DNA of 64,000 nucleotides from Candidatus Versatilivorator sp. (GCA_965207735.1 OZ242296.1:662723-726722); one strand, 5' to 3'; positions 7,390 to 58,900 are shown, numbered from the stretch's first letter. Notes: generated by a model from the sequence alone, not told the origin. Translations and numbers: made by a program.

Positions 7390-8300
7390 GCGTTGACCGG
7401 ATGTAGGCAGATAGCGCGGAACTTGTGCGACACGTTCGGGAGTCAACGCCTTGCAGGCTTTCAGTGTTCTGCTCTTTTTGTGTTTTTGTGCCTTTTGTGG
7501 CCATTCCCGGCAAGGGTCCCGCTGCTGAATTTTGCAAAAGGCTCGAGAGTGAAACAATCGGAAATCGACAATCCCTTCGTGAACTTGGAACCCCGTCGCG
7601 GCCAACCTCAGCGCCTTAGTGGCCCTTCGTCGTTCTTCGTGCCCCTTCGTGGATAAGTCTTTTGTCTTTTTTAGGTTGTTTCAGACAAGTCCCGCCTCCG
7701 CCGTGCCAGGCGGATCATTCAGAGGAGAAACAGCCAGCTGTTTGCGTTTTGGAAAGAGACAGGATTAATAGGACCAGAGGCCGCTGCACGGGACGCTGAC
7801 TGGGAATCGGGGCGTTGGGCACGGCCAAGGCCCGCCACGGGGAAGATCAATCGAGAAGGACTAAGAATTGAACATGGATGCACAGAATGCACAGGATTGA
7901 CAGGACGAGAGCTTCCTGCACCAGAAGCCAACTCGGGCCATGATCCGGTGCGGATTTGCGGATTCCCGGCAGTAGAAGCCAGCCGTTTCCTGAAGAATCC
8001 TGCGAATCCTGTGCATCGATGTTAATGATCTCCTTAAATCACGATGGGGTCGGAAGCCCCCCACTGGCTCGGCCGCGGTCCTTGTTGCTTCTTCGCGGAC
8101 AAATCCTCTTTGTCCCTTGTGTCCTTTGTTGACCCCCTTGCCGACCTTCGCCCCATCCCTCTTGGGCCTTCTCCAGCGCCTTGGTGTTCCTTCGTCGTTC
8201 TTCGTGCCCCTTCGTGGAAATGTCTTTTTCTTTTGTCTTTTTAGGTTGTTTCAGACAAGCCTCTTCCACAGAGGCCTTCCGATGCGATATTTTGAGGCGG
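7390..8300. repeat. Composite non-coding repeat cluster 1: sub-repeats A (CTTTTTGTGTTTTTGTGCCTTTTGTGG), B (GAGTGAAACAATCGGAAATCGAC...CCTTCGTCGTTCTTCGTGCCCCTTCGTGGA...TTTTGTCTTTTTTAGGTTGTTTCAGACAAG, present twice) and C (about 170-bp unit with TIR-like ends GAACATGGATGCACAGAAT...ATCCTGTGCATCGATGTTAAT)
   Basis: All three sub-repeats recur in the same combination at 57850-58900, with A inverted there. The ORF-track 'proteins' across them (..PSSFFVPLRG..) are repeat translations. Confidence 0.6.
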
Positions 8301-27613: not shown

Positions 27614-27712
27614 CTAGCCCGCATTTCTCACCAGAGGTAGGAAGCATCGGTTCTCGGAATCTGGTAAAATACTCTTGTCTAAGGAGTTAACCAGATTCTT
27701 AAAGGAGAACCG

Positions 27713-29080
27713 ATGCCGACACAGTGTAACACCAAACCCCTGGAGTTTGAACCCCACGGCCGCCGCCGCGTGGTGGCTGATTTCGACGGCGGTCCCATCA
27801 CTTCCGATGCCGGCTCCCTGCTGTTGCGCCGGGTGGATCGGGGCTTATCTCTCTCCGACCAGGTGGCCGACTGTTTCACCGATCACCGCGACCCCAAGCG
27901 GACCCAATACAGCCTGCGCACCCTCATCGCTCAGCGCATCCGTGGCATCGCCCTCGGCTACGAGGATCTCATCGACCACGACCAACTCCGTCACGATCCC
28001 CTCATGGCCTTGTTTTCAGAGAAAGGCCGTCGTGGCGACTCGCCTCCCCTGGCAGGCAAGAGCACCCTCAACCGACTCGAACACGCCCCCACCCAAGGCC
28101 CCACCCGCTACCACAAGATTGACCACGACCCCGAGGCCTTGCAAGCCCTCCTGGTGAAACTGTTTCTGCAAGCCCATCCCCAACCCCCCGATGAGATCAT
28201 CCTCGACCTCGACGCCACTGACGATCCCCTCCACGGGGAACAAGAGGACCGCTTCTTCCACGGCTACTACCGAGGCTACTGCTACCTGCCCCTCTACATC
28301 TTCTCGGGCCGCCATCTGCTCTCGGCCCTGCTCAGACCCGCCAACATCGATGCCTCCGCCGGCGCTCTGGAGCAGGTCCAGCGCATCGTCTCCCGCCTAC
28401 GGCGTGTCTGGCCTCAGGTCAAGATCCTGCTGCGGGCCGACTCCGGCTTTGCCCGTGAGGAGCTGATGGGGTGGTGTGAGCAGCATCAGGTCGACTATCT
28501 CTTCGGCCTGGCCCGCAACTCCCGCCTCCAAGACGCCATCGCCCCCGAGTTGGCTCAGGCCCAGGCCCTCTCAGACCAGCAACAGCAGCCCGCCCGGATC
28601 TTCACCGACCTCTCCTACCGCACTCACAAGAGCTGGTCCCACGAGCGCCGCCTGGTCGCCAAAGCCGAGGTCCTGCCCCGCGGCCCCAACCCCCGCTTCG
28701 TCGTCACCTCTCTGTCGGTCCAGGACTACCCCGCCCAGTTCCTCTATGAGAAGATCTACTGTGCCCGCGGTGAGATGGAAAACCGCATCAAGGAGCAGCA
28801 ACTCGACCTGTTTGCCGATCGCACCTCCACCCACTCCTTCCGGGCGAATCAGCTCCGGCTCCTGATGACCTCTTTCGCCTATGTGCTGGTGGAGGGCTTG
28901 CGCCGGCGGGCGCTGCAATCCACCTGCCTGGCCCGGGCCACCGTCGGTTCCATCAGACTCAAACTGCTCAAGATCGGCGCTCAGGTCACCATCTCGGTCC
29001 GTCGCATCAAGGTCGCCATGGCTTCCGGATGTCCTTACCAGAGGGAGTTCCGCATCGCTTGGGCTCACCTGCCGCCCTGA
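27713..29080 (+). CDS. IS1380-family DDE transposase (455 aa)
   Basis: Typical IS1380 architecture and motifs (ILDLDATDDPLHGEQE...LRADSGFA...CARGEMENRIKE...IRLKLLKIGAQV). Confidence 0.85.
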   Translation: MPTQCNTKPLEFEPHGRRRVVADFDGGPITSDAGSLLLRRVDRGLSLSDQVADCFTDHRDPKRTQYSLRTLIAQRIRGIALGYEDLIDHDQLRHDPLMALFSEKGRRGDSPPLAGKSTLNRLEHAPTQGPTRYHKIDHDPEALQALLVKLFLQAHPQPPDEIILDLDATDDPLHGEQEDRFFHGYYRGYCYLPLYIFSGRHLLSALLRPANIDASAGALEQVQRIVSRLRRVWPQVKILLRADSGFAREELMGWCEQHQVDYLFGLARNSRLQDAIAPELAQAQALSDQQQQPARIFTDLSYRTHKSWSHERRLVAKAEVLPRGPNPRFVVTSLSVQDYPAQFLYEKIYCARGEMENRIKEQQLDLFADRTSTHSFRANQLRLLMTSFAYVLVEGLRRRALQSTCLARATVGSIRLKLLKIGAQVTISVRRIKVAMASGCPYQREFRIAWAHLPP

Positions 29081-34514: not shown

Positions 34515-34529
34515 CCTGCCTCCTTAAAT

Positions 34530-35432
34530 TCAGGTCTGGCCGATCCAGGAAGCCTCCGCCACCTCTTTCCAGCGCTTGCGGATCGCCACGAATTGACGGG
34601 AGGGCAGGGGACCGGCTTCGAGCAGGGTGGCGTTTTGCCGCCACCGTCCCGGCGTCAGCGTTCCCACGATGGCCGTATGTACGCCCGGGGCGCTCAGGGT
34701 GAAGCGCAGCGCCGTCGAAATGGAAGTATCCAGGGAGTCTTTGATGAAGGGATAGTCCAGCCGCTGCAAGCGATCCCAGTAGGTATGGTGATAGGAATTC
34801 ACCGGCTTCCGTCCGATTCTCCAGGCCGCATTGGCCAGGGGCCGCTTGGCGATTACGCCGAGCGGTTGCTCGCGTGCCAGGGGAAGGGCCAGGTCCAGCG
34901 CTTCCTGATCGGCGATGCTGATGGAAGTCTGCAAGCAATCGAAGGCTCGGCATTGGGCGGCGAAATAGGCTGCCCGGCTGTCGCCGCTATAGCCGATGTA
35001 GCGGCAATAGCCGCGCTCCCGGGCTCGCTGCAAGGTCTCGATCACCGTTCCCTTGAGCAGTTCCTCTTCGGAACAACTGTGCAGCTGGATCAGATCCAGC
35101 CTGTCGGTCCGCAGTCGCCGCAGGCTGCGTTGGATACTGCGCAACAAGGAGTCCGGCCGCCAGTCTTCTTCCGGCATTCCGTCCGGATGGCCGCACTTGG
35201 TGAACAGGTAGAAATCCCGGCGGCGTCCCGAAACGGCCCGTCCGATAAGCTCCTCGCTGGCTCCGTAGCACTCGCCGGTGTCGATCAGATTCAATCCCTC
35301 GTCCAAAGCGGCATTGAGCAGGCGGGTCACCGTGCTCAAGGATGCCCCGGGACCTTCCAGGCCGATTTCGGCGCCCCCGAAACCGAGGATGCTGACCTCC
35401 ATGTCGGTATTGCCCAGTCGTCTGGTTTCCAT
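34530..35432 (-). CDS. Aldo/keto reductase
   Basis: LGFGGAEIG, IDTGECYG and SRLQTDRLDLIQLH are characteristic AKR motifs. Confidence 0.8.
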   Translation of the reverse strand: METRRLGNTDMEVSILGFGGAEIGLEGPGASLSTVTRLLNAALDEGLNLIDTGECYGASEELIGRAVSGRRRDFYLFTKCGHPDGMPEEDWRPDSLLRSIQRSLRRLRTDRLDLIQLHSCSEEELLKGTVIETLQRARERGYCRYIGYSGDSRAAYFAAQCRAFDCLQTSISIADQEALDLALPLAREQPLGVIAKRPLANAAWRIGRKPVNSYHHTYWDRLQRLDYPFIKDSLDTSISTALRFTLSAPGVHTAIVGTLTPGRWRQNATLLEAGPLPSRQFVAIRKRWKEVAEASWIGQT

Positions 35433-35538
35433 TTCCTCTCCTCATCCCGCCAAGGTTTGAATAGGCTATCACAAGGCCCGGAACCCTGAGGATCGGGAAT
35501 TCGGGGTCGTGTGTCCCGGAGAACTCCGTCAGGTCGAC

Positions 35539-38335: not shown

Positions 38336-40678
38336 ATGAGAATTCTCCGACAGTCGATTTTTTTGGAAGTCGCCGGCTCCTTCGGTCTGGGTAGCCTGGT
38401 GTTCAGCGCTGTCCTGCTGACCAACGAAGTGTCTCGACGGCTAATGGAAACCCTGGTTCAGGAGAACATCACCCTGGAGGAGGCCGGTCTCCTCTTCCTC
38501 TGCATCCTGCCCAAGGTGCTCACCTTCTCCATTCCCATGTCGGCCTTGTTGGGCATTCTCATCTGTTTCGGACGCCTTTCGGCCGACAGTGAAATTACCG
38601 CCATGCGATCTTCCGGCATCGGTCTGAGGAACCTGGTGTGGCCGGTATTGGTCTTCTCGGCGGTAGTGGGCACGGTGGCCCTGTTGAATTCCAACCTGTG
38701 GTCTCCCAGGGCCAATCACCGCCTGATATCGATCAAGGATGATATTGCGCTCAAGTCGCTCAACACCGCCGTCCGTAGAGGTGTCTTCGAAGAGCGTTTT
38801 CCCGGTCGGGTGGTCTACATCATGGATACGGCCCCCGACCGGCGCTCCTGGAAGGGGATCTTCCTGGCCGAGGTCACCGAGGCCAATTGGCCCAAGGCTA
38901 CCTTTGCGCGCCAAGGTAGACTGATCAGCCACCTCGGCCGGCGTGAGCTGCAGCTCAACCTTCAGCAGGGTGCGACCTACGAGGTGGTGCCGGGAAAAGA
39001 AGGGACGGTGCGGGTCACTTCCTTTGACGACGCCACCGTTCCCCTCTACAAGGCGATGGGTGCCCCCGCGGAGGCTCCCAAGAACAAATCCATCCTGGAG
39101 ATGGACACGCTTGAGCTCTACGGCAAGGTTTTTTCCGAGGTTCCTGCCGGCAGCGACCTTGATCGCAGAAAGGGGGTCATTGAGCTCAATCGTCGACTGG
39201 CGCTGCCGCTGGCCGTCCTTGTGTTTTGCATTCTCGGGCTTCCGCTGGGCGTTGTCACCAGGAGGGGCGGCAAGTCCTTCGGGTTCGTCGTCAGCCTGGT
39301 CATCTTCCTGGTCTATTTCATTCTTTTTTCCCAGGGTCTGGCTTTTGCGGAAAGCGGCCATATCCCGGCCTTCCTGGGCCCCTGGTTGGCGAACCTGGTG
39401 TTTCTGGCGTTGGGATTGTTTCTCTTGCTGATCTCGGAGAGGCAGTTTTCCTGGGGTCGGCTGTTTCGCCCCCTGGTCAACGCGATCTGGGGCGCGACCC
39501 GGGGACTGCGCAAGGAAGCGGCCGGCGCCGACAATTCCGGCCGGAATCGGAGAAGCGGGGGGAGCGGTGTCTCCCACTTCCCTGCCGGATGGACGCTGGA
39601 CAAGTACATCCTCAGCGGATTCCTGAAAATCCTGGTTCTGGTGCTTGCCGCCTTCATCGTGCTCTTCGTGCTGTTTACCTTCTTTGAACTGCTCAGCGAC
39701 ATCGTCGAGCAAGGCACTTCCGGTTGGGTCGTGTTCGACTACTTCCTCTACCTGATTCCCCACATCCTGGTGCAGATGATTCCCTTCAGCGTCCTGGTAG
39801 CCGCGCTGGTGAGCTTCAGTCTCCTGACCCGGACCTCTCAGATCGTGGCCATGAAATCCTCGGGAATCAGCCTATACCGGCTGTCCTCTTCGGTTCTGCT
39901 GACTGCCTTCCTGTTGAGCGCCGGTTCCTTCATGCTGCAGGAATATGTCCTGCCATCCGCCAACCAGAAGCAGGACGACTTGCGGCGCGTCATCAAGGGA
40001 CGCAATCCTCAGACCATACGTCCCACCCTCAAGTGGATGATGGGCGAGCGGGACCGCATCTTCCACTACAATTTCTTCGATGATCAGCTCAACGTTTTCA
40101 ATCGGATTTCGGTGTTCGACTTCGATCCGCGGACCCTTGCGGTCACCCGGATGGTCTTTGCCGAGAAAGCCTGGTGGGACCCAACCCGCTCGGGATGGGT
40201 TTTCGAGGGGGGCTGGGCTCAGGGTTTCAGCCACGACCGGGCACAGCAGTCCCAGTTTTTAGCGATCGACCGTAAGCTGATCGGGTCCATTGAGGAGCGT
40301 CCCGACTACTTCAAGAAGGAAGTCCGTCAGTCATCCAAGATGAGTTATCGGGAATTGGGCCGCTACATCGACGACTTGAGCCGAAGCGGGTTCGACGTGG
40401 TGAGGCTGAAGGTTGCCTGGTACGGCAAGCTGTCCTTTCCGCTGGTGAGTCTGACCATGGCCATGATCGCCATTCCCTTTGCCTTTTCCACGGGCAAGCG
40501 GGGTTCGCTCTACGGCATTGGCCTCAGCATCGTGGTTGGAATCAGCTTCTGGGTCGTGCAGGGATTCTTCGAGCAGATCGGAAGCGCGGGCAAGCTGGAG
40601 CCGCTGCTGGCCGCCTGGGCCCCCAACCTGGTCTTCGGGGCCGGAGGCCTCTACCTGCTCTTCAACGTGCGGACGTAG
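38336..40678 (+). CDS. lptFG: Fused LptF-LptG lipopolysaccharide export permease (two YjgP/YjgQ domains in one 780-aa ORF)
   Basis: Two consecutive permease units each starting with the family motif (RQSIFLEVAGSFG... and LDKYILSGFLKILVLVLAAF...), each with a periplasmic beta-jellyroll insert. Confidence 0.7.
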   Translation: MRILRQSIFLEVAGSFGLGSLVFSAVLLTNEVSRRLMETLVQENITLEEAGLLFLCILPKVLTFSIPMSALLGILICFGRLSADSEITAMRSSGIGLRNLVWPVLVFSAVVGTVALLNSNLWSPRANHRLISIKDDIALKSLNTAVRRGVFEERFPGRVVYIMDTAPDRRSWKGIFLAEVTEANWPKATFARQGRLISHLGRRELQLNLQQGATYEVVPGKEGTVRVTSFDDATVPLYKAMGAPAEAPKNKSILEMDTLELYGKVFSEVPAGSDLDRRKGVIELNRRLALPLAVLVFCILGLPLGVVTRRGGKSFGFVVSLVIFLVYFILFSQGLAFAESGHIPAFLGPWLANLVFLALGLFLLLISERQFSWGRLFRPLVNAIWGATRGLRKEAAGADNSGRNRRSGGSGVSHFPAGWTLDKYILSGFLKILVLVLAAFIVLFVLFTFFELLSDIVEQGTSGWVVFDYFLYLIPHILVQMIPFSVLVAALVSFSLLTRTSQIVAMKSSGISLYRLSSSVLLTAFLLSAGSFMLQEYVLPSANQKQDDLRRVIKGRNPQTIRPTLKWMMGERDRIFHYNFFDDQLNVFNRISVFDFDPRTLAVTRMVFAEKAWWDPTRSGWVFEGGWAQGFSHDRAQQSQFLAIDRKLIGSIEERPDYFKKEVRQSSKMSYRELGRYIDDLSRSGFDVVRLKVAWYGKLSFPLVSLTMAMIAIPFAFSTGKRGSLYGIGLSIVVGISFWVVQGFFEQIGSAGKLEPLLAAWAPNLVFGAGGLYLLFNVRT

Positions 40679-40693
40679 GTGGGACACCAAGTA

Positions 40694-43510
40694 ATGACCA
40701 TGAATGAAGTCGGATTCGTTAGTCGCCGGTCCAGCGTGGAAAGCAAGATCGCCCTATTCCGTTCGCTGTTTCGGGGACGCGAGGACGTCTATCCGCGCCG
40801 ATTCGAGAGTTTGGCATCCGGTAAGTCGGGTTATGCGCCAGCATGTTCCAACGAGTGGCGGCCGGGCGTGTGCGAAAAGCCAAAGATTAAGTGTGCCGAC
40901 TGCTTCAACCGCCGGTTCCTATCCGTCACCGACCAAGTGGTTCGTTGGCACCTGTCTGGCGCAGACGATAACGGCAAGCCGTTCACCATGGGCGTCTATC
41001 CCATGTCGGTCGATGAAAGCTGTCACTTTCTCGCGGTCGACTTTGACGGCAAGCGGTGGAGTGATGACGCAACAGCCTATCTCGAAATCTGTGCCAGGCG
41101 TGGAGTCCCCGCTGCTCTCGAACGTTCAAGGTCGGGAAACGGAGGACACATTTGGCTGTTCTTCGACGAGGCTGTACCGGCGGGGTTGGCGCGCCGGTTA
41201 GGGGCGTTGCTTCTCACTGAAGCCATGGATGACCGGGCCGATCTCGGTTTTCGTTCTTACGACCGTTTCTTTCCGAGTCAAGACACTTTGCCACGTGGCG
41301 GATTCGGCAACTTGATCGCTTTGCCGCTGCAGCGCGAGCCGCGGAAGGCCGGCAACAGCGTATTTGTCGATGCGGACTTGAATCCGTTTGCCGATCAGTG
41401 GGCACATCTTTCGCAACTCGGCCGAATTCATTCAATGCAGGCAGAGTCCATGGTCGAACAAGCGGAGAAGAAAGGCCGCGTGTTGGGTGTCAGGGCCGTC
41501 ACTCTCGATGACGACCTGTTTGCCGCCGCACCGTGGAACGCACCGCCGTCCCGTAGGCCCGTTGAACCGGCCGTAACCGCACCGGTTCCCGACAATTTGG
41601 AGATCGTGCTCGGTGACCGAGTCTACATCCCAAAGGGGGATTTGCCGCCGAGTATCGTCACCCGCTTGATGCGGCTGGCGGCGTTCCAGAATCCAGAATT
41701 CTACCGCGCGCAGGCCATGCGGTTGCCAACCTACGGCAAGCCCAGGATCGTGGCCTGCGCTGAGAATGGAACCAGGTTTCTCGATGTTCCTCGGGGTTGT
41801 CTGGAAGATGTGGAGAAACTTCTCCGTAGTCTTGGGATCGAGCTTTCGATACAGGACAAACGCTTTTCGGGTCTACCTCTTACGGTGTCCTTCCAAGGCG
41901 TGCTGCGCCCTGAGCAGGAGACGGCGGCGAACGCCATGCTGGCCCATGACACGGGAGTCTTGGCGGCAACGACTGCATTCGGGAAGACGGTCGTGGCCGC
42001 GTGGCTGATCGCTAAACGAAGCGTCAACACACTGATTCTGGTTCATCGCAAACAACTGTTGGAACAGTGGGTCACCCGATTGGGCGAATTACTTGACGTC
42101 GCGGAACGTGACATCGGTCGTTTGGGGGGTGGTCGCAAGAAACTCACTGGCAAGATTGATGTCGCCCTGATTCAGAGCTTGACCAGAAAGGGTCTGGTCT
42201 ACGACCGAATTGCCGATTACGGATTTGTGATTGTCGATGAGTGTCACCACGTACCCGCTTTCAGCTTCGAACTGGCAGTCAGCCGCGCAAAAGCCAAGTA
42301 CCTCACCGGACTCTCGGCAACCGTCGTGCGAAAGGATGGCCACCAGCCGATTGTGTTCATGCAGTGTGGTCCCGTACGGCACCGCGTGGATGCCAGGCGC
42401 CAGGCTGCAAAAAGGCCGTTTTCCCACGTGGTGCTGGCTCGACCGACGGGCTTCCAGATGCAGGGCGAGCCGGAAGGCGATGCGCGCATCGAGTTCCAAC
42501 GCGTTTGCGATCAGTTGATAAGGGACAACAGTCGGAATCAGGCGATATGCTCCGAAGTAGTCCAAAACGTTCAAAACGGTCGGGCGCCACTGGTTATGAC
42601 GGAACGAGTCGACCACTTGGAGACCCTTGCCGATGGGCTCCGGGCCAGCGGTGTTGACATTGTATGCCTACAGGGTGGGATGGGAAACAGGGCACTCAAA
42701 TCGGCTCTGGCTCGGGCTGCCGAGTTCGTACCCGGGCGGGTGTTGTTGGCCACGGGGCGTTTCATTGGGGAGGGATTTGACAACGCGCGGCTCGATAGCT
42801 TGTTCCTGACCATGCCTGTGTCCTGGCGCGGAACCATCTCCCAGTACGTAGGGCGTCTGCATCGTCTTCACGAAAACAAGCGTGAGGTGCTCGTCTACGA
42901 CTACGCTGATCTCGATGTGCCGATGCTTTCGCGCATGTTCGAACGACGATGTCGCGCCTACGAGGCGGCTGGCTATTCCATTTCGCTTCCTGCCAGTGCC
43001 GCTCCTGGCTGGCCTGCCGGCGTCCAGCTTCCCGCCGATGGACCTTGGAAACACCGGTACTCGGCAAGCGTGCGGCGTTTGCTTCGCGATGGGGTTGACG
43101 AAACCCTCGCCGAACTCTTCAGCACCATCAGCGGGCCCGTACCCTTGGACGAGCCAAACACCCCACGGGCACGTAGCGCCAGCGAAGCGTTCCTGTTCCG
43201 GCGCCTGCAAAGTATGCCTGAAACCAAAGATCGATTCCGATTGAACGCCCATTTGCCAATTCCGTTTTGTCAGGAAGGCCACATGGAGGTCGACTTTCTC
43301 GACCCGGCGTCACGATTGGTGGTCGAACTGGATGGATCGCAACACTTGGGGGACCGTGAAGCGTATCGGCGAGACCGTCGCAAGGATGCCCTGCTGCAGG
43401 AGCACGGTTATGTGGTGTTGAGGTTCTTAGCCGAAGATCTGGGCCTTGGACTGGATTCGATTCTCGACGAAATCCTGCGTGCACTTGCCCGAGCAGCCAA
43501 AATTTCATGA
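40694..43510 (+). CDS. PrimPol (archaeo-eukaryotic primase-polymerase)-SF2 DEAH helicase-DUF559 endonuclease fusion protein
   Basis: The N-terminal region has AEP motifs LAVDFDG and SRSGNGGHIWLFF plus a Cys cluster (CSNEWRPGVCEKPKIKCADC). The middle region has Walker A TAFGKT and DECHH with a helicase C-domain. The C-terminal 110 aa match the DUF559/Vsr-like nuclease fold (EVDFLDPASRLVVELDGSQH...VVLRF). A GTG at 40679 overlaps the lptFG stop; the first ATG is at 40694. Confidence 0.7.
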   Translation: MTMNEVGFVSRRSSVESKIALFRSLFRGREDVYPRRFESLASGKSGYAPACSNEWRPGVCEKPKIKCADCFNRRFLSVTDQVVRWHLSGADDNGKPFTMGVYPMSVDESCHFLAVDFDGKRWSDDATAYLEICARRGVPAALERSRSGNGGHIWLFFDEAVPAGLARRLGALLLTEAMDDRADLGFRSYDRFFPSQDTLPRGGFGNLIALPLQREPRKAGNSVFVDADLNPFADQWAHLSQLGRIHSMQAESMVEQAEKKGRVLGVRAVTLDDDLFAAAPWNAPPSRRPVEPAVTAPVPDNLEIVLGDRVYIPKGDLPPSIVTRLMRLAAFQNPEFYRAQAMRLPTYGKPRIVACAENGTRFLDVPRGCLEDVEKLLRSLGIELSIQDKRFSGLPLTVSFQGVLRPEQETAANAMLAHDTGVLAATTAFGKTVVAAWLIAKRSVNTLILVHRKQLLEQWVTRLGELLDVAERDIGRLGGGRKKLTGKIDVALIQSLTRKGLVYDRIADYGFVIVDECHHVPAFSFELAVSRAKAKYLTGLSATVVRKDGHQPIVFMQCGPVRHRVDARRQAAKRPFSHVVLARPTGFQMQGEPEGDARIEFQRVCDQLIRDNSRNQAICSEVVQNVQNGRAPLVMTERVDHLETLADGLRASGVDIVCLQGGMGNRALKSALARAAEFVPGRVLLATGRFIGEGFDNARLDSLFLTMPVSWRGTISQYVGRLHRLHENKREVLVYDYADLDVPMLSRMFERRCRAYEAAGYSISLPASAAPGWPAGVQLPADGPWKHRYSASVRRLLRDGVDETLAELFSTISGPVPLDEPNTPRARSASEAFLFRRLQSMPETKDRFRLNAHLPIPFCQEGHMEVDFLDPASRLVVELDGSQHLGDREAYRRDRRKDALLQEHGYVVLRFLAEDLGLGLDSILDEILRALARAAKIS

Positions 43511-43553: not shown

Positions 43554-44837
<1,284 letters not shown>

Positions 44838-48643: not shown

Positions 48644-50449
48644 CTACTCCGGTTTGGATGGGCTCTCCGCGTAGAGGGCTTCAATCTCATTCTTAAATCT
48701 CTTCTCGACAATTCGACGTTTAACTTTCAGTGTAGGAGTCAGTTCCCCGTCCTCGATGGTGAAGTCCTTTTCTACGGGAACGACTTTTTTCACCGTTTCG
48801 AAAGAGGCCAATCCGGCAGTTGATTTTTCGACTGCGTTCATGAGGAATTCTTGAATGGGCGGGCTTTGGAGCAGGTCGCCGTAGCTCTCAAAGGAGAGTC
48901 CCTGTTCACGCGCGTGGTCGGTGATCGTCTCCGGGTTGGGGACCACCAGGGCGCACAGGTAGGGGCGCTTGTCTCCCAACACGACCGCATTGAGCAGCAC
49001 CGGGCTGGCTTTGAGGAGCCTCTCGATCGGCTGGGGGGCGACGTTTTTCCCGCCGGCTGTGACAATCAGGTCCTTCTTGCGATCGGTGATCTTCAGGAAT
49101 CCGTCCGGGTCCAGATGGCCGATGTCCCCGGTGTGGAACCACCCTTCCTTGATCACCTCTCGAGTTTCCTCGGGCCTGTTGTAATAGCCGAGCATCACTG
49201 ACGGCCCCCGGGTCAGGACCTCGCCGTCTTCGGCGATTCTCGCTTCCAGACCGGGCAACGGCTGTCCCACCGTTCCGAACCTGAAGCGGTTCGGCAGGTT
49301 GACCGCGATCACCGGTGAGGTTTCAGTGAGGCCGTAGCCTTCCAGGATCAGGATCCCGGCGCTGAGGAAGAACTCGGCCAGGCTGGGGTCGAGGGGGGCG
49401 CCTCCCGAGATGAAGAATCGCAGCCGACCCCCAAGGCGCTGTTGCAGCTTGGCAAACACGATCTTGGAGGCGAGGAAGCGCTGGAAGGCCAGGCCGGGGG
49501 GCGGGGTGGTGCCCTGGAGAATGTGACGGGTATGGCGCTCCCCTACTCCGAAGGCCCAATCGCTCAGCGCGCGTTTCAGGCCGGTACTGAGTCGCCTGGA
49601 TTCCATGACACGGTCGTGTAACTTCTCGAAGAATCTGGGGACGCAAGCCACCACCGTGGGTTGGACCTCCTGCATGTTGAGCGGTACCTTTTCGATGCTT
49701 TCGGCGTATGCGATGCTCACGCCGCAATTGAACATGAGGTAGTGCGCCACCCGTTCGAAAATATGGCTGAGCGGCAGCAGGGAAAGGACGCTGTCCCTGT
49801 GATCGAAGTCGAATCCCCGGCTGAGTTCCAGGACGTTGGCCACGATGTTGGCATGGGACAGCATGACTCCCTTGGGCGGCCCGGTAGTGCCGGAGGTGTA
49901 GATGATGGTGGCCACGTCTTGCGGACCGATTCCTTGACGGACCTTCAGATATGCGGCAGGGTCGCTCTGCGAAGCCTGTTCCCCCTCCTCCCGCAGGCTG
50001 TTGAAGCTCCGCAGGCTGTCGGATTCGGGTTCTTCCAGGTCCATGACCACCGTGGATTGGAGACTGGGTATCTTCGACTCGATTTCCCGGATCTTCTCCA
50101 GTTGTTCCGTGGTGGACAGGATGATGATCTTGACGCCGGCGTCGTTGAGAAGCCCCTCGATCTGGTTCGCGGGCAACGTCGGATAGACGGGAACGTTGAT
50201 GGCGCCGGCGGAAAGAATGGAGATGTCCGAAACCAGCCATTCGGGCCTGTTTTCCGACAGGAGGGCGATACGGTCGCCGGCCTCCGCTCCCAGGTTCATC
50301 AATCCCGCGACCACGCCCTGGACTTGGCTTCGGACCTCCGCCGAAGACAGCGGGTGAAAGCGGCCCTCCCGCTTGACCATCAAAGCGTCAGGCCGGCTCT
50401 TGTGGGTTACGGCCTCCTCGAAGAGGTCGACAATCGTTTGTGGTGTCAT
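48644..50449 (-). CDS. Long-chain fatty-acid--CoA ligase (AMP-forming, FadD-like)
   Basis: AMP-binding motif IIYTSGTTGPPKGVMLSH and the TGD...GYYNRPEET region. The true start is MTPQTIVDLFE at 50449. The 1065-aa track ORF is a run-on over gcvT antisense. Confidence 0.8.
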   Translation of the reverse strand: MTPQTIVDLFEEAVTHKSRPDALMVKREGRFHPLSSAEVRSQVQGVVAGLMNLGAEAGDRIALLSENRPEWLVSDISILSAGAINVPVYPTLPANQIEGLLNDAGVKIIILSTTEQLEKIREIESKIPSLQSTVVMDLEEPESDSLRSFNSLREEGEQASQSDPAAYLKVRQGIGPQDVATIIYTSGTTGPPKGVMLSHANIVANVLELSRGFDFDHRDSVLSLLPLSHIFERVAHYLMFNCGVSIAYAESIEKVPLNMQEVQPTVVACVPRFFEKLHDRVMESRRLSTGLKRALSDWAFGVGERHTRHILQGTTPPPGLAFQRFLASKIVFAKLQQRLGGRLRFFISGGAPLDPSLAEFFLSAGILILEGYGLTETSPVIAVNLPNRFRFGTVGQPLPGLEARIAEDGEVLTRGPSVMLGYYNRPEETREVIKEGWFHTGDIGHLDPDGFLKITDRKKDLIVTAGGKNVAPQPIERLLKASPVLLNAVVLGDKRPYLCALVVPNPETITDHAREQGLSFESYGDLLQSPPIQEFLMNAVEKSTAGLASFETVKKVVPVEKDFTIEDGELTPTLKVKRRIVEKRFKNEIEALYAESPSKPE

Positions 50450-50704
50450 GGGTTCCCTCGTGCGTTCCGGTTGGTGAAGTTGAGGACCATGCCCGGCTGT
50501 CTTTCCCAAGCTGGAATTTCGGTGATTATAGCAAACTCGGAAACCCTCCGGGCTGCAGGCTGGAACGGTCCCCCTTTGGCGGGATTCAGCTCGCTCTCGA
50601 GGCCTGTCGGAACGCCTCCGGAGCCACCAGCCGATTGGCTTGACGCCTCCTGGTGGGTGTGTTACTTTGCCACGCTTGATGCCTCCTTCCGAGACCGGCA
50701 GCCG

Positions 50705-51853
50705 ATGACGTCCCCGCTGAAAAAGACTTCCCTGCACGCGTTGCATCGAAGGTTGGGATCCAGGATGGGCGCATTTGGCGGCTGGGAAATGCCCATCGAA
50801 TACACGGGAATCGTGGGGGAGCATCTGGCCGTGCGGACCAGGGTGGGTCTGTTCGACGTCAGCCATATGGGAGAGATCGAGATCGATGGACCCGGCAGCC
50901 TGGCTCTGGTGCAGCAGGTCGCCTGCAACGATGCCGGACGTCTCCAGCTCGGTCAGATCCAATACTCCGCCTTGCTCACCGAGCGGGGGACGTTTGTGGA
51001 TGACATTCTGGTCCATCGGCTGGAAGAGAGCCGCTTTCTCCTTTGCGTCAATGCCGGCAACACGGGCAACGATTATCGCCACATATGCCGTCAAAACCGA
51101 TTCGGGGCCCGGGTTACCGACGCCAGCGATCACTATGCGCAGTTGGCCATTCAAGGTCCCGAGGCCGCGCCAGTCCTCCAGTCCCTGGTCGATCTGGACC
51201 TGTCTGAAATCGGCTACTACCGTTTTCGACCCGGGCGGGTCCAGGACGTTCGGGGGCTCATCGCGCGGACCGGCTACACGGGGGAAGATGGCTTTGAGAT
51301 CTATTTTCCGCCCACCGCCGCCGAGGCCGTGTGGGAGGGTCTGAGCCGAGCGGGACGATCGCGGGAGTTGCTTCCGGCAGGACTGGGAGCACGCAATACC
51401 CTGCGCCTGGAGGCCAAAATGGCTCTCTACGGTCACGAGATCGATGGAGAGACAACGCCCTGGGAAGCGGGATTGGGGTGGATGGTTCGCATGGACAAAC
51501 CCGACTTCACGGGAAAGGCCGCCCTGGCCGCCCAACTGGAGGCGGGAGTGCAAAGAAAGCTGGTTGGTTTCGAGATGCGCGGGCCGGGAATCGGCCGGGA
51601 CGGATATGACGTGCTTCGAAACGGCCGGAGGATCGGTTGGGTCACCAGCGGCAGCCCTGCTCCTTTTCTCAAGAAAAACATCGGACTTGCCTATGTGAAC
51701 GCGGGTGAAGCCTTCCTGGGAAACCGGCTCGATATTCAGGTCAGAAAACGCCTGGTGCCCGCCGAAGTCGTGAAGACCCCGTTCTATCGGAGAGAGAGGC
51801 GTCGGCCTGTCGGCCCTCGTCCAAACCCGGAGACCCCCCATGAGGCTTCCTGA
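50705..51853 (+). CDS. gcvT: Glycine cleavage system aminomethyltransferase T
   Basis: LFDVSHMGEIEIDG and typical GcvT domains. Start at ATG 50705 (MTSPLKK). Confidence 0.85.
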   Translation: MTSPLKKTSLHALHRRLGSRMGAFGGWEMPIEYTGIVGEHLAVRTRVGLFDVSHMGEIEIDGPGSLALVQQVACNDAGRLQLGQIQYSALLTERGTFVDDILVHRLEESRFLLCVNAGNTGNDYRHICRQNRFGARVTDASDHYAQLAIQGPEAAPVLQSLVDLDLSEIGYYRFRPGRVQDVRGLIARTGYTGEDGFEIYFPPTAAEAVWEGLSRAGRSRELLPAGLGARNTLRLEAKMALYGHEIDGETTPWEAGLGWMVRMDKPDFTGKAALAAQLEAGVQRKLVGFEMRGPGIGRDGYDVLRNGRRIGWVTSGSPAPFLKKNIGLAYVNAGEAFLGNRLDIQVRKRLVPAEVVKTPFYRRERRRPVGPRPNPETPHEAS

Positions 51854-57849: not shown

Positions 57850-58900
57850 AGGGAGTCGGTTGTTTCAGACAAGCCGGGCCCCCGCCCCCACGACGGGCGG
57901 ATCATACAAGAGTGAAACAATGAGTCTTCATGGCCCGTCGGGAACAAGGGCCCTGTCGTGCCGAACCGGTTTTCTACTGATTGAACATGGATGCACAGGA
58001 TAAACAGGATAAACAGCACGAGAGTCTGTGCCACAGAAGCAGACCCGCTTGATGATCGGGTGGGTGTTGAAAGTGATCCAAGAGCCCGGGAGCGGGTTTT
58101 GGGAAATCCGTGTTGGAACAGAGGCGATGGTTGAACTCAAGACGGTGGAAACTCTCACCCAATAATCCTGTCCATCCTGTGCATCCATGTAAATTAGCCG
58201 TCTGACTATGCTTGACTTTGAACGGATGTTCCGCCACCCGGCACAAGGCGTTGTTTCAAATAAACATCAGAGCCCTTTGCAAAATTCACGAGCGGGACCT
58301 TTGCCGGGAATGGCCACAAAAGGCACAAAAACACAAAAAGAACCATCGGATGGGCAAGTCTCGAAATCAAGAAACTCGTTTTGTGCCTTTTGTGCTTTTT
58401 GTGGTTTCTGTTGTCTCTTGTGCTTATCGTGGTGAATGCTGGAGCCTGCAGCACATCATCCTTGCCGCCTCAATGTCATTCCCGATTGCGATATTTGCAA
58501 AAGGCTCATCCTTGCGTCGGCTTGTGCTTCACTTGGGCTCACCGGCATTTGCTGCCGCCGCCTACGCGGCTCGACACCCATAGGCGACGTTTCCCTGGGC
58601 TGACGCCCACGGCTAAGTGCTGCCGCGGCTTCGCCGCTCTCAAGGAAGCCGGCTAAAGCAGCATATTCTCAGGCAAGTCCGGCCCCCGCCCTGGTGTGCG
58701 GATCATACATAGAGTGAAACAATCGGAAATCGACCAACCCTTCACGACCTTGGTACCCCGTCGCGGTCAACCTCAGCGCCTTAGTGCCCCTTCGTCGTTC
58801 TTCGTGCCCCTTCGTGGATTTCTTTTTTCTTTTGTCTTTTTTCGTTTGTATCAGACAAGTCCGGTTCCACCCTGCCGATGATTCGACGAACACGATCGAT
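57850..58900. repeat. Composite non-coding repeat cluster 2 (same sub-repeats A, B, C as cluster 1, with A inverted)
   Basis: Sub-repeat C at 57975-58195 (TIR-like GAACATGGATGCACAGGAT...ATCCTGTGCATCCATGTAAAT). Sub-repeat A reverse complement at 58290-58400. Sub-repeat B at 58690-58870, ending TTTTGTCTTTTTTCGTTTGTATCAGACAAG. Confidence 0.6.

What the first reader, a model, noticed from the sequence alone, without database searches (positions are those of the whole stretch)
40694..43510. Stand-alone 943-aa PrimPol - SF2 helicase - DUF559 nuclease fusion wedged between lptFG and ahcY
The N-terminus has archaeo-eukaryotic primase-polymerase motifs (hhhDhD = LAVDFDG; SxSGxGxH = SRSGNGGHIWLFF) preceded by a 4-Cys cluster. 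The centre is a DEAH-box SF2 helicase (TAFGKT, DECHH). The C-terminus is a DUF559/Vsr-like endonuclease fold. A primase-polymerase, helicase and nuclease on one polypeptide is reminiscent of single-protein anti-phage or conflict systems, or of a mobile-element replication initiator. It is not part of any replication or repair operon here. A GTG at 40679 overlaps the lptFG stop, so it may be co-transcribed with an LPS-export gene. I do not recognise this exact architecture as a named defence system.
Basis: partly seen in the sequence, partly recalled or inferred. Interest (0 to 1): 0.7.

Follow-up and report, generated by a model that had tools for sequence, protein, structure and literature searches.

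The report
Solo primase-helicase-nuclease (AEP-TOTE) gene
This is a real, intact 938-aa gene that fuses a DNA primase-polymerase, an XPB-like DNA-opening motor and a nicking nuclease; it belongs to a very widespread family that is already catalogued but experimentally untested and is predicted to act against phages or plasmids, and here it was inserted long ago, alone, between two housekeeping genes.

Summary
One ORF (ATG 40694 to TGA 43510, 938 aa; 943 aa from GTG 40679) encodes four modules: a Zn-cluster AEP primase-polymerase, a DRD-like domain, an XPB/UvsW-like SF2 helicase and a DUF559/Vsr-like nuclease. Every catalytic motif is invariant across phyla. The architecture is not unnamed. The N-terminus matches Pfam PF22548 "AEP-TOTE" (E=2.6e-92), and NCBI already uses that name. 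The family is very large: over 8000 clusters at 50% identity.

New findings:
- The conserved core is AEP + helicase. The C-terminal nuclease is swappable (DUF559, PLD-like or none).
- The DUF559 clade has no conserved partner gene in 81 loci, so it is not a canonical multi-gene TOTE system. No TPR, OB or TBP gene is present.
- Relatives show empty sites with lptFG directly abutting ahcY. The ORF was therefore gained by insertion, then inherited vertically under purifying selection (dN/dS 0.15, like its flanks).
- It is absent from 50,697 phage genomes and rare in viral contigs. Homolog neighbourhoods are modestly enriched for AbiE, other TA genes and integrases.

Most likely it is an autonomous "open, prime, nick" conflict enzyme (confidence ~0.45). 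The main rivals are a DNA-repair enzyme and an exapted mobile-element primase-helicase. It is a new member of a catalogued, uncharacterised kind; interest is moderate.

The parts
40694..43510 (+). Complete ORF, 938 aa from ATG plus the TGA stop. An alternative in-frame GTG at 40679 gives 943 aa.
   Evidence: (P0001, 938 aa, 100% identical)
40677..40682 (+). AGGTGG Shine-Dalgarno-like site overlapping the lptFG TAG stop (40676-40678), 11 nt before ATG 40694. It implies translational and transcriptional coupling to lptFG.
   Evidence: Read directly from the sequence. No promoter or terminator between the genes. The coupling itself is inferred.
40745..41446 (+). AEP primase-polymerase domain, Pfam AEP-TOTE, aa 23-256 in 943-aa numbering. 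Motif I is D121/D123 (41027-41050), motif II is SRSGNGGH (41126-41164) and motif III is YD(R) (41255-41287).
   Evidence: Pfam E=2.6e-92; PADLOC PrimPol 1.1e-85; PDB CAPP 7nqd 4.6e-8; motif residues invariant in 27 homologs and in 56 distant representatives
40844..40903 (+). Invariant 4-Cys cluster (C56, C65, C72, C75) inside the AEP domain; presumed Zn-binding knuckle.
   Evidence: Invariant in A1 and at least 90% conserved in A2. Low pLDDT in the model, which has no metal. Zn binding is inferred.
41576..41863 (+). DRD-like alpha/beta domain (aa ~300-395). It resembles the UvsW N-terminal domain, the XPB damage-recognition domain and MutS domain I.
41900..42913 (+). XPB/UvsW-like SF2 helicase/translocase core (aa 408-745). 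Walker A TAFGKT at 41972-41989, DECHH at 42236-42250, motif III SAT plus an R-K-D 'RED-like' motif at 42311-42343, motif VI QYVGRLHR at 42842-42865.
   Evidence: Pfam ResIII, DEAD and Helicase_C; NCBIfam XPB 7.8e-22; PDB XPBII 1.2e-15; Foldseek top hits TFIIH XPB, archaeal XPB-Bax1 and T4 UvsW; motifs invariant
42914..43276 (+). Conserved, mostly helical linker (aa 746-866) with no family assignment.
   Evidence: Secondary structure in the model; many invariant residues, e.g. PGWP and RDGVD; no Pfam hit
43277..43486 (+). DUF559/Vsr-like PD-(D/E)xK-type endonuclease domain (aa 867-936). Conserved residues: E870, D872, E883, D885, H889 and the RRDRRKD segment.
   Evidence: Pfam DUF559 1.3e-11 and MTES_1575 1.4e-5; PDB 3hrl 2.8e-4; residues invariant or near-invariant. 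The catalytic role of these residues is inferred.
38336..40678 (+). Upstream flank: fused LptF-LptG permease gene. It is context and the probable transcriptional driver, not part of the system.
   Evidence: NCBIfam LptG 1.5e-104 and LptF 3.4e-100
43554..44822 (-). Downstream convergent flank: adenosylhomocysteinase (ahcY). Together with lptFG it defines the insertion site.
   Evidence: NCBIfam ahcY 2.9e-192; empty sites in L103, L104 and L105

Best explanation
The gene encodes an autonomous, single-polypeptide DNA-targeting conflict (defence-type) enzyme of the AEP-TOTE family. An ancestor of this acidobacterial lineage acquired it horizontally as a bare ORF. It has since been kept as a host gene and is probably transcribed with lptFG.

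Proposed mechanism:
1. (Inferred) The DRD-like domain and the XPB/UvsW-like ATP motor recognise distorted or branched DNA. Candidates are replication forks, R-loops or D-loops, or ss/ds junctions of an invading phage or plasmid. The motor then opens or translocates on that DNA.
2. (Inferred) The Zn-containing AEP primes de novo and extends on the exposed strand. This makes a short hybrid or duplex that marks the target or blocks its replication.
3. (Inferred) The DUF559/Vsr-like domain nicks the duplex, so that replication run-off produces breaks.

Shown by the data:
- All three catalytic centres are intact and invariant.
- AEP + helicase is the obligatory core, and the nuclease is an exchangeable effector (DUF559, PLD-like or none).
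- No partner gene is conserved.
- The gene was gained by insertion and is under purifying selection.
For: - Family identity: Pfam PF22548 'TOTE conflict system AEP' at 309 bits. NCBI names relatives 'TOTE conflict system archaeo-eukaryotic primase domain-containing protein'. PADLOC's cas-associated PrimPol HMM scores 1.1e-85.
- Catalytic motifs of the AEP, helicase and nuclease are invariant in 27 homologs from many phyla. AEP and helicase motifs are also conserved in 56 distant representatives.
- Architecture census: AEP-TOTE 56/56, ResIII 53/56, PLDc_2 9/56, DUF559 2/56. The C-terminal tails fall into three classes. This is effector swapping, which is typical of conflict systems.
- No neighbour family occurs in more than 6 of 81 loci.
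- Neighbours include AbiEii (5), AAA_14-DUF4143/PDC-S01 (4), AbiEi, ParE, IS200 and DpdE/DrmD/BrxH-like helicases among 149 proteins. AbiE, Fic, DUF4276-ATPase and integrase genes are seen.
- Horizontal gain: empty lptFG/ahcY sites in three relatives with no remnant of the gene. The nearest relatives outside the genus are Gammaproteobacteria (73%, 65%), not other Acidobacteria (59-62%).
- It is not a phage gene: 0 of 50,697 phage records carry the fusion, and only 33 of 2.9 million viral contigs carry a relative.
- Precedents: a PrimPol domain is essential in the validated DRT7 defence. Helicases with C-terminal Vsr-type nucleases occur in the validated ARMADA system.
Against: - No experiment exists for this family in the searchable literature.
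- Conservation is unusually high for a defence gene: about 60-65% identity over 940 aa between phyla, and dN/dS 0.147 with no sign of diversification.
- At this locus the gene sits among housekeeping genes with no defence island.
- There is no visible self/non-self discriminator such as a methylase or an inhibitor.
- The defence-neighbour enrichment is modest, roughly one locus in five, and I did not measure a background rate.
- Nuclease-less relatives sit in plasmid establishment regions and integrative-element cores. That also fits a mobile-element replication role for the core module.
- The TPR/OB/TBP partners that define TOTE are absent.
Confidence: 0.45

Rival explanations
1. It is a self-contained DNA repair or damage-tolerance enzyme. 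The Vsr-like domain nicks at a lesion or mismatch, the XPB-like motor with its DRD domain opens or unwinds the damaged tract, and the PrimPol re-primes or fills the gap. This would be a one-protein analogue of XPB-Bax1 plus Prim-Pol gap filling.
For: - The helicase is XPB-like with a DRD/MutS-domain-I-like module and an R-K-D motif at the XPB RED position.
- Vsr-family nucleases are mismatch nickases (established knowledge).
- Conservation is very strong and dN/dS equals that of the housekeeping flanks.
- The gene is in a housekeeping context and probably co-transcribed with lptFG.
- The PrimPol-RT protein PPRT/DRT7 contributes to oxidative-damage tolerance as well as to defence.
Against: - The distribution is patchy and driven by horizontal transfer, and close relatives have empty sites.
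- The nuclease is dispensable or replaced by a PLD-like domain, often degenerate, in most of the family.
- Neighbours elsewhere are TA, Abi and integrase genes, not repair genes.
- Curators classify the family as a conflict system.
Confidence: 0.2
2. It is a mobile-element primase-helicase that acts in replication or establishment, here left behind or exapted. The XPB-like motor melts an origin or processes incoming ssDNA, and the AEP primes complementary-strand synthesis for an integrative element or conjugative plasmid.
For: - AEP + helicase is the classic mobile-element replicase layout (established knowledge, e.g. pRN1 ORF904).
- 61 plasmid records carry the nuclease-less form next to ParB, ArdC-like DUF1738, DUF736, integrases and TA genes.
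- About 20 IMG/VR loci show excisionase-like HTH_17 genes, an HTH-DUF3307-AEP-helicase operon and tandem integrases.
- Integrases lie next to the gene in L081 and L098.
Against: - At this locus there is no element: no integrase, no repeats and no conserved ends.
- The ORF has nevertheless stayed intact under purifying selection over dS ~0.47.
- The helicase is a monomer-type SF2 XPB/UvsW-like enzyme, not an SF3, SF4 or MCM replicative helicase.
- On plasmids it lies outside the replication module.
- The fusion is absent from 50,697 phage genomes.
- The DUF559 clade was not found on any of 72,556 plasmids.
Confidence: 0.18
3. It is a selfish free-standing 'homing' gene. The nuclease cuts empty alleles, and the helicase and polymerase promote copying of the ORF into the break.
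For: The insertion is ORF-only, sits in a short intergenic spacer between conserved genes and carries a nuclease domain.
Against: - Insertion sites differ in essentially every lineage, and no flank is conserved.
- Inheritance at this site is vertical, with dS matching the flanks.
- Most of the family lacks an active nuclease.
Confidence: 0.03
4. It is a CRISPR adaptation accessory similar to CAPP, converting ssDNA into duplex prespacers.
For: PADLOC labels its best-matching HMM as cas-associated. There is similarity to the CRISPR-associated PrimPol: NCBIfam PrimPol_Msp 1.4e-18 and PDB 7nqd 4.6e-8.
Against: - No cas gene lies within 10 kb on either side.
- None is a conserved neighbour in 81 loci.
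- The PrimPol_Msp score of 66.7 is far below the 200-bit cutoff.
Confidence: 0.02

Closest known systems
[quoted passage not shown]
   Same: The N-terminal AEP domain matches the family model end to end (309 bits). An effector-type nuclease is present. Relatives carry the NCBI 'TOTE conflict system AEP' name.
   Different: TOTE is defined by a TPR-CSD (OB) protein and a TBP protein, and its systems often include RNase H domains. None of these is present here, in 81 related loci, or in sampled loci of the other branches. The linker domain is DRD-like, not a hidden TBP or OB. I could not read the primary TOTE paper.
CRISPR-associated Prim-Pol (CAPP; PDB 7nqd/7nqf; NCBIfam PrimPol_Msp)
   Same: It belongs to a related AEP Prim-Pol catalytic domain.
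   Different: It is not associated with cas genes, and the score is far below the equivalog cutoff. CAPP is not fused to an XPB-like helicase or to DUF559.
XPB/Rad25 (TFIIH; archaeal XPB-Bax1 helicase-nuclease) and T4 UvsW
   Same: The SF2 core and the N-terminal DRD-like domain have the same fold. An R-x-D motif sits where XPB has RED. Like XPB-Bax1, a DNA-opening motor is paired with a nuclease.
   Different: It is not an ortholog: 77.5 bits against a 610-bit cutoff. The nuclease is fused in cis and is Vsr-type rather than Bax1. An AEP is added. The motif is R-K-D, not R-E-D.
DRT7/UG10 (PPRT): RT + PrimPol defence protein
   Same: It is a single polypeptide in which an AEP/PrimPol domain is required for immunity, and it also has a link to DNA-damage tolerance.
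   Different: The partner domain is a reverse transcriptase, not a helicase-nuclease. Its output is protein-primed poly(A)/poly(T) DNA. No RT is present here.
Helicase-Vsr/DUF559 defence proteins (ARMADA YprA-Vsr; Hhe of Gao et al. 2020, from memory)
   Same: An SF helicase is fused to a C-terminal Vsr-family nuclease that acts as the effector.
   Different: The helicase families differ (YprA, or SF1 in Hhe), and none of these has an AEP. No PADLOC model for these systems was matched.
Mobile-element primase-helicase replicases (e.g. pRN1 ORF904, P4 alpha, D5-like; from established knowledge)
   Same: The order is AEP followed by helicase in one protein. Relatives occur on plasmids and integrative elements.
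   Different: Those replicases use SF3 or other hexameric helicases and sit with an origin in an element. Here the helicase is SF2 XPB-like, a nuclease is attached, and no element is present.

Membership tests
AEP (archaeo-eukaryotic primase) superfamily, Prim-Pol type | Catalytic motif I (hhhDhD), motif II (sxH) and motif III (hD) | tested here: met
   FLAVDFDG, SRSGNGGH and SYDR are present. D121, D123, H157 and D195 are invariant.
Pfam PF22548 AEP-TOTE | Score above the curated gathering threshold (27 bits) over the full model | tested here: met
   309 bits, profile positions 2-228 of 230
TOTE conflict system (TPR, OB, TBP, Effector) | An adjacent TPR-OB (cold-shock domain) protein | tested here: not met
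   All genes within 10 kb on either side are housekeeping. No TPR or CSD family appears among the listed top neighbour families of 58 loci or in the sampled contexts.
TOTE conflict system (TPR, OB, TBP, Effector) | An adjacent TATA-binding-protein-like (TBP) protein or domain | tested here: not met
   Same evidence as for the TPR-OB protein. The only unassigned globular linker is DRD/MutS-domain-I-like, not TBP.
TOTE conflict system (TPR, OB, TBP, Effector) | An effector domain such as a nuclease | tested here: met
   DUF559 scores 44.8 bits against a 20.6-bit cutoff, with conserved acidic and His residues.
XPB/Rad25 helicase (NCBIfam NF045503 equivalog) | Equivalog-level sequence score (610 bits) | tested here: not met
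   77.5 bits, partial match
XPB/UvsW-like SF2 fold group | SF2 motifs I, II, III and VI, plus an N-terminal DRD-like domain and a RED-position motif | tested here: met
DUF559 / Vsr-like endonuclease | Pfam score above threshold and conserved catalytic acidic/His residues | tested here: met
   Pfam 1.3e-11. PDB 3hrl 2.8e-4. E870, E883, D885 and H889 are invariant and D872 is at least 90% conserved. Mapping these onto Vsr catalysis is inferred.
CRISPR-associated Prim-Pol (CAPP) | Equivalog score and cas-gene neighbourhood | tested here: not met
   66.7 bits against a 200-bit cutoff. There are no cas neighbours.
Named single-gene defence systems in PADLOC 2.0 (Hhe, Hna-type, etc.) | A match to the system's own HMM | tested here: not met
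   Only generic partial helicase and nuclease hits were found, at 1e-8 or weaker (PbeA, mREase_IV, DpdF, BrxH). No system-defining hit appeared.
Mobile-element replicative primase-helicase | An SF3, SF4 or MCM helicase and a location in an element's replication module | tested here: not met
   The helicase is SF2. This locus holds no element. Plasmid copies lie outside the rep modules.
Anti-phage defence system (functional class) | Experimentally shown protection against phage or plasmid | not testable with these tools
   No experimental paper was found.

The most novel reading that the evidence does not exclude
The DUF559 clade is a fully autonomous one-protein 'open, prime, nick' machine. 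Its biological output, whether immunity against replicating invaders or a one-enzyme excision/patch repair, depends on de novo primer synthesis on DNA opened by an XPB/UvsW-like motor. No characterised system uses this mechanism. It needs none of the TPR, OB or TBP partners that define TOTE. In these Acidobacteria it has been domesticated into the essential lptFG transcription unit.
Probability: 0.3. Interest if true: 0.7.

Novelty: new member of a known kind. Interest (0 to 1): 0.4.

Why it matters
The AEP + XPB-like helicase module is one of the more abundant multi-enzyme proteins that has been named but never tested. It has over 8000 clusters at 50% identity, and the DUF559 form alone occurs in many phyla.

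This work shows three things about the DUF559 form: it works without partner genes, its nuclease is an exchangeable add-on, and it can be stably domesticated. Together these give a clean, single-gene construct for experiments.

If priming is part of an immune or repair mechanism, it would add a new biochemical principle beside the RT-PrimPol system DRT7. It would also give a bacterial counterpart to XPB-nuclease machines.

For annotation, the name 'TOTE conflict system' should not be read as implying a multi-gene TOTE locus here.

Tried and rejected
- Hidden TOTE partners. I looked for TPR, OB/CSD or TBP in the flanks, in 81 related loci, in sampled loci of the other branches and inside the protein's unassigned linker. 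None was found; the linker is DRD-like.\n- Self-mobile cassette or transposon. The gene has no terminal inverted or direct repeats around it in the window. Flanks are not conserved across 58 loci. The inverted-repeat-bounded sequences beside the L001 copy are separate MITE-like insertions that the window lacks.\n- Recent horizontal acquisition. Rejected because GC content is unremarkable and dS matches the flanks. The gain is old.\n- Phage or prophage replicase. No phage record carries the fusion. One prophage-adjacent case (L106) has no phage-like immediate neighbours.\n- Pseudogene remnant in the closest empty site (L103, 964-nt gap). There is no tblastn signal.\n- Primary TOTE paper (Annu Rev Biomed Data Sci 2022). 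It is not held, so the definition is taken second-hand from the YprA preprint.\n- Literature searches for an experimental study of this fusion returned nothing relevant.\n- look-up of encoding contigs could not locate P0001 itself, so the organism is inferred from L001 (Ca. Versatilivorator).
Full report
OBSERVATION

The window holds one long ORF at 40679..43510 on the + strand.
- FLAVDFDG, nt 41027-41050
- SRSGNGGHIWLFF, nt 41126-41164
- a C-x8-C-x6-C-x2-C cluster, nt 40844-40903
- TAFGKT, nt 41972-41989
- DECHH, nt 42236-42250
- a DUF559 core HMEVDF..VELDGSQH, nt 43280-43387

Pfam gives AEP-TOTE (PF22548) at E=2.6e-92, ResIII 1.9e-18, DEAD 2.8e-8 and DUF559 1.3e-11. The flanks are a fused LptF-LptG permease and adenosylhomocysteinase. 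Beyond them lie a KefC-like antiporter and a fatty-acid beta-oxidation cluster.

Two small corrections apply. The probable start is ATG 40694, giving 938 aa. Public gene calls use it (P0001, 100% identical, 938 aa), homologs begin MTMNE, and an AGGTGG Shine-Dalgarno overlapping the lptFG TAG stop precedes it. Second, GTG 40679 abuts that stop rather than overlapping it. No promoter-like or terminator-like site separates lptFG from the ORF, so co-transcription is a reasonable inference.

ANATOMY

Sequence and structure searches refine the three-domain picture into five modules.

1. AEP domain (aa 23-256). It is related to the CRISPR-associated Prim-Pol: PDB 7nqd 4.6e-8 and NCBIfam PrimPol_Msp 1.4e-18, far below that model's cutoff.
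3. Helicase core. The full-length model (pLDDT 70) has TFIIH XPB, archaeal XPB-Bax1 and UvsW as its best Foldseek matches. After motif III it carries an invariant R-K-D where XPB has its RED motif.
4. Helical linker (aa 746-866). It is conserved and has no family assignment.
5. DUF559/Vsr-like domain, with conserved acidic and His residues.

In an alignment of 27 homologs from many phyla, the following are all invariant: the four cysteines, AEP motifs I-III, Walker A, DECHH, motif VI and the DUF559 residues E870, E883, D885 and H889. Mean column identity is 68%. All three enzymes therefore look active, and the whole chain, linkers included, is constrained.

HOW COMMON, AND WHAT VARIES

The word-indexed search saturated at 8000 hits. 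Its 120 best-scoring hits, at 63-100% identity, nearly all show the same three-domain architecture. Sources label them only 'DEAD/DEAH box helicase' or 'SF2 helicase / Vsr endonuclease'. They span Verrucomicrobiota, Planctomycetota, Acidobacteriota, Gammaproteobacteria, Saccharimonadales, Myxococcota and others.

An exhaustive HMMER search with the AEP region alone found 8056 clusters at 50% identity, 1501 of them at E<=1e-30. A Pfam census of 56 long representatives gave AEP-TOTE 56/56, ResIII 53/56, PLDc_2 9/56 and DUF559 2/56. Inspection of the C-terminal tails shows three classes: DUF559, none (~800 aa), and PLD-like with an HKD motif that is often degenerate. The obligatory core is therefore AEP + XPB-like helicase, and the nuclease is an exchangeable add-on.

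NAMED OR NOT

The Pfam family is called 'TOTE conflict system, AEP domain'. NCBI uses that product name for relatives. PADLOC's cas-associated 'PrimPol' HMM matches at 1.1e-85.

TOTE stands for TPR, OB, TBP, Effector (Aravind, Iyer & Burroughs 2022), as quoted in the YprA preprint. That preprint describes a TPR-cold-shock-domain fusion and TBP proteins as the shared TOTE genes, and says TOTE systems often include RNase H domains. I could not obtain the primary paper. No experimental study of this fusion was found.

PARTNERS AND NEIGHBOURHOODS

I clustered all ORFs within 10 kb on either side in 81 loci. No neighbour family occurs in more than 6 loci, and only the 88%-identical Ca. Versatilivorator locus (L001) shares synteny with the window. 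The DUF559 clade therefore works alone and is not a canonical multi-gene TOTE system.

Among 149 proteins within two genes of the ORF in 58 loci, the recurrent families were:
- AbiEii (5)
- AAA_14-DUF4143 / PADLOC candidate PDC-S01 (4)
- AbiEi, ParE, IS200 transposase and DpdE/DrmD/BrxH-like helicases (2 each)

The rest look like ordinary cellular genes, and no TPR, CSD or TBP family was listed.

Annotated contigs show the same flavour. One has an integrase fragment and an AbiEi/AbiEii pair directly upstream. Another has an AAA_15/21 + DUF4276 pair downstream. For the nuclease-less class, AbiEii, DUF4143-ATPase or Fic genes lie immediately upstream in the same orientation, with integrases nearby. 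This is a moderate association with defence and mobile-island genes. I did not measure a matched background.

PHAGES, PLASMIDS AND ELEMENTS

None of 50,697 phage genomes carries the fusion. The only matches are to the helicase part at ~27% identity.

In 72,556 plasmids, 61 records carry the nuclease-less AEP-helicase at 52-57% identity. Most are alphaproteobacterial conjugative megaplasmids. No plasmid carries the DUF559 form. The three records inspected place the gene beside ParB, ArdC-like DUF1738, DUF736, integrases, TA modules and transposases. It is not in the replication module.

Among 2.9 million IMG/VR contigs, only 33 loci have a relative. One, L106, has the DUF559 form. It lies about 6 kb from a terminase, but its immediate neighbours have no phage-family hits. 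About 20 loci share an integrative-element core:
- two HTH_17 excisionase-like genes
- an HTH -> DUF3307 -> AEP-helicase operon
- tandem tyrosine integrases

The mobile-element association of the non-DUF559 branches is real, however, and keeps that rival alive for the core module.

HISTORY OF THIS LOCUS

Homologs of the fused LptFG at 77%, 64% and 53% identity sit in the same synteny. In those genomes ahcY converges directly on lptFG, with gaps of 964, 160 and 81 nt and no tblastn trace of the AEP gene. The ORF was therefore inserted into that spacer in the ancestor of the window and L001 lineages.

The insertion is old and has been inherited vertically. Against L001, the gene has dS 0.47 and dN/dS 0.147, within the range of nine flanking genes (dS 0.29-0.56, dN/dS 0.09-0.19). 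GC content is unremarkable. No repeats bound the gene in the window, and flanks are not conserved across loci. That rules out a recognisable self-mobile cassette.

Horizontal origin is also indicated by the gene's relatives. Its nearest relatives outside the genus are gammaproteobacterial (73%, 65%), not other Acidobacteria (59-62%). L001's title and NCBI taxonomy place the host in Acidobacteriota, Terriglobia, Ca. Versatilivoraceae. For the window itself this placement is inferred.

MECHANISM

My preferred model (confidence 0.45) is an autonomous conflict enzyme that opens, primes and nicks. The DRD-like domain and the XPB/UvsW-type motor engage distorted or branched DNA of a replicating or entering invader and expose a single strand. 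The Zn-containing AEP primes and extends on it. The Vsr-like domain nicks the resulting duplex, turning replication into breakage.

Shown by the data:
- intact, invariant catalytic centres
- core-plus-exchangeable-effector logic
- independence from partner genes
- gain by horizontal transfer
- purifying selection

Inferred: the substrate, the order of steps and the immune outcome.

Precedents make the parts plausible. The PrimPol domain of DRT7 is required for defence and synthesises DNA during abortive infection. Helicases with C-terminal Vsr-type nucleases occur in the validated ARMADA system. XPB works with the Bax1 nuclease in archaea (PDB 6p4o among the fold hits).

RIVALS

1. One-protein excision or patch repair, or damage tolerance (0.20). 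This is favoured by the XPB/DRD/MutS-like features, the Vsr ancestry, the extreme conservation and the housekeeping setting. PPRT/DRT7 also shows a dual role in defence and oxidative-damage tolerance. It is disfavoured by the patchy horizontal distribution, the dispensable nuclease and the TA/integrase neighbours.
2. An exapted mobile-element primase-helicase for replication or establishment (0.18). This is favoured by the plasmid and integrative-element contexts. It is disfavoured here by the absence of any element, the long solitary persistence under selection and the non-replicative SF2 helicase type.
3. A homing-type selfish gene (0.03) and a CAPP-like CRISPR accessory (0.02). Both are unlikely, for the reasons given in their entries.

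VERDICT

It is a new member of a catalogued but experimentally uncharacterised family, not a new architecture. What this analysis adds:
- the DUF559 clade acts solo
- the linker is identified as DRD-like
- the core-plus-swappable-nuclease rule
- the clean insertion and domestication history at the lptFG/ahcY site

Interest is moderate (0.4). The value lies in the family being a strong, simple, single-gene candidate for experimental work on a possibly priming-dependent immune or repair mechanism.

Noticed in passing
L081-L088, L095-L099 (relatives; not in the window): The AEP-helicase gene often lies immediately downstream of an AbiEii, AAA_14-DUF4143 ATPase or Fic gene in the same orientation, with gaps of 36-131 nt. 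Tyrosine integrases are often a few genes away. This could be operonic coupling or just shared island residence.
   Followed up: partly
L114-L137 (IMG/VR contigs), e.g. L126:5554-13740: A conserved integrative-element core: two HTH_17 excisionase-like genes, then an overlapping operon of an HTH protein (Sigma70_r4-like, ~223 aa), DUF3307 (~230 aa) and an AEP-helicase (~965 aa), followed by tandem tyrosine integrases with Arm-DNA-bind_5 domains.
   Followed up: partly
L001:9613-9886 and L001:12886-13240: Two MITE-like elements bounded by inverted repeats (34-nt and 35-nt arms) sit in the intergenic regions on each side of the L001 copy of the gene. Both are absent from the window, which explains the window's much tighter spacing.
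   Followed up: partly
window 27615-27777, 58800-58835, 7635-7669, 8201-8218; L103:9347-10310: A CACGAAGG-rich repeat fills the lptFG/ahcY spacer of the closest empty-site genome. It has blastn matches (73-100% identity) at several intergenic places in the window, which suggests a dispersed small repeat family in these Acidobacteria.
   Followed up: no
window 38336-40678: LptF and LptG are fused into one 780-aa permease. The fusion is conserved in 473 homologs (E<=1e-50); those that sources name are from Terriglobia/Acidobacteriota.
   Followed up: partly
window 34526-35444: The aldo/keto-reductase gene (34530-35432) is present in the window and in L103 and L104 but missing from the otherwise collinear L001. 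It is a lineage-specific deletion in L001.
   Followed up: no
L002:5713-8199: In the 73%-identical gammaproteobacterial locus, the second gene upstream (829 aa, no Pfam hit) has a Cas3-type HD-nuclease-like segment (PADLOC Cas3g 4.6e-28, aa 639-729).
   Followed up: no
P0158-P0268 (distant representatives): Many AEP-helicase proteins end in a PLD-like domain whose HxK(x)4D motif is lost. This points to an inactivated nuclease kept for binding or regulation.
   Followed up: partly
window 48644-51841 (- strand): The FadD-like acyl-CoA ligase ORF is 1065 aa, but its best family match (FadD11) covers only residues 480-1060. About 450 N-terminal residues are left unassigned.
   Followed up: no
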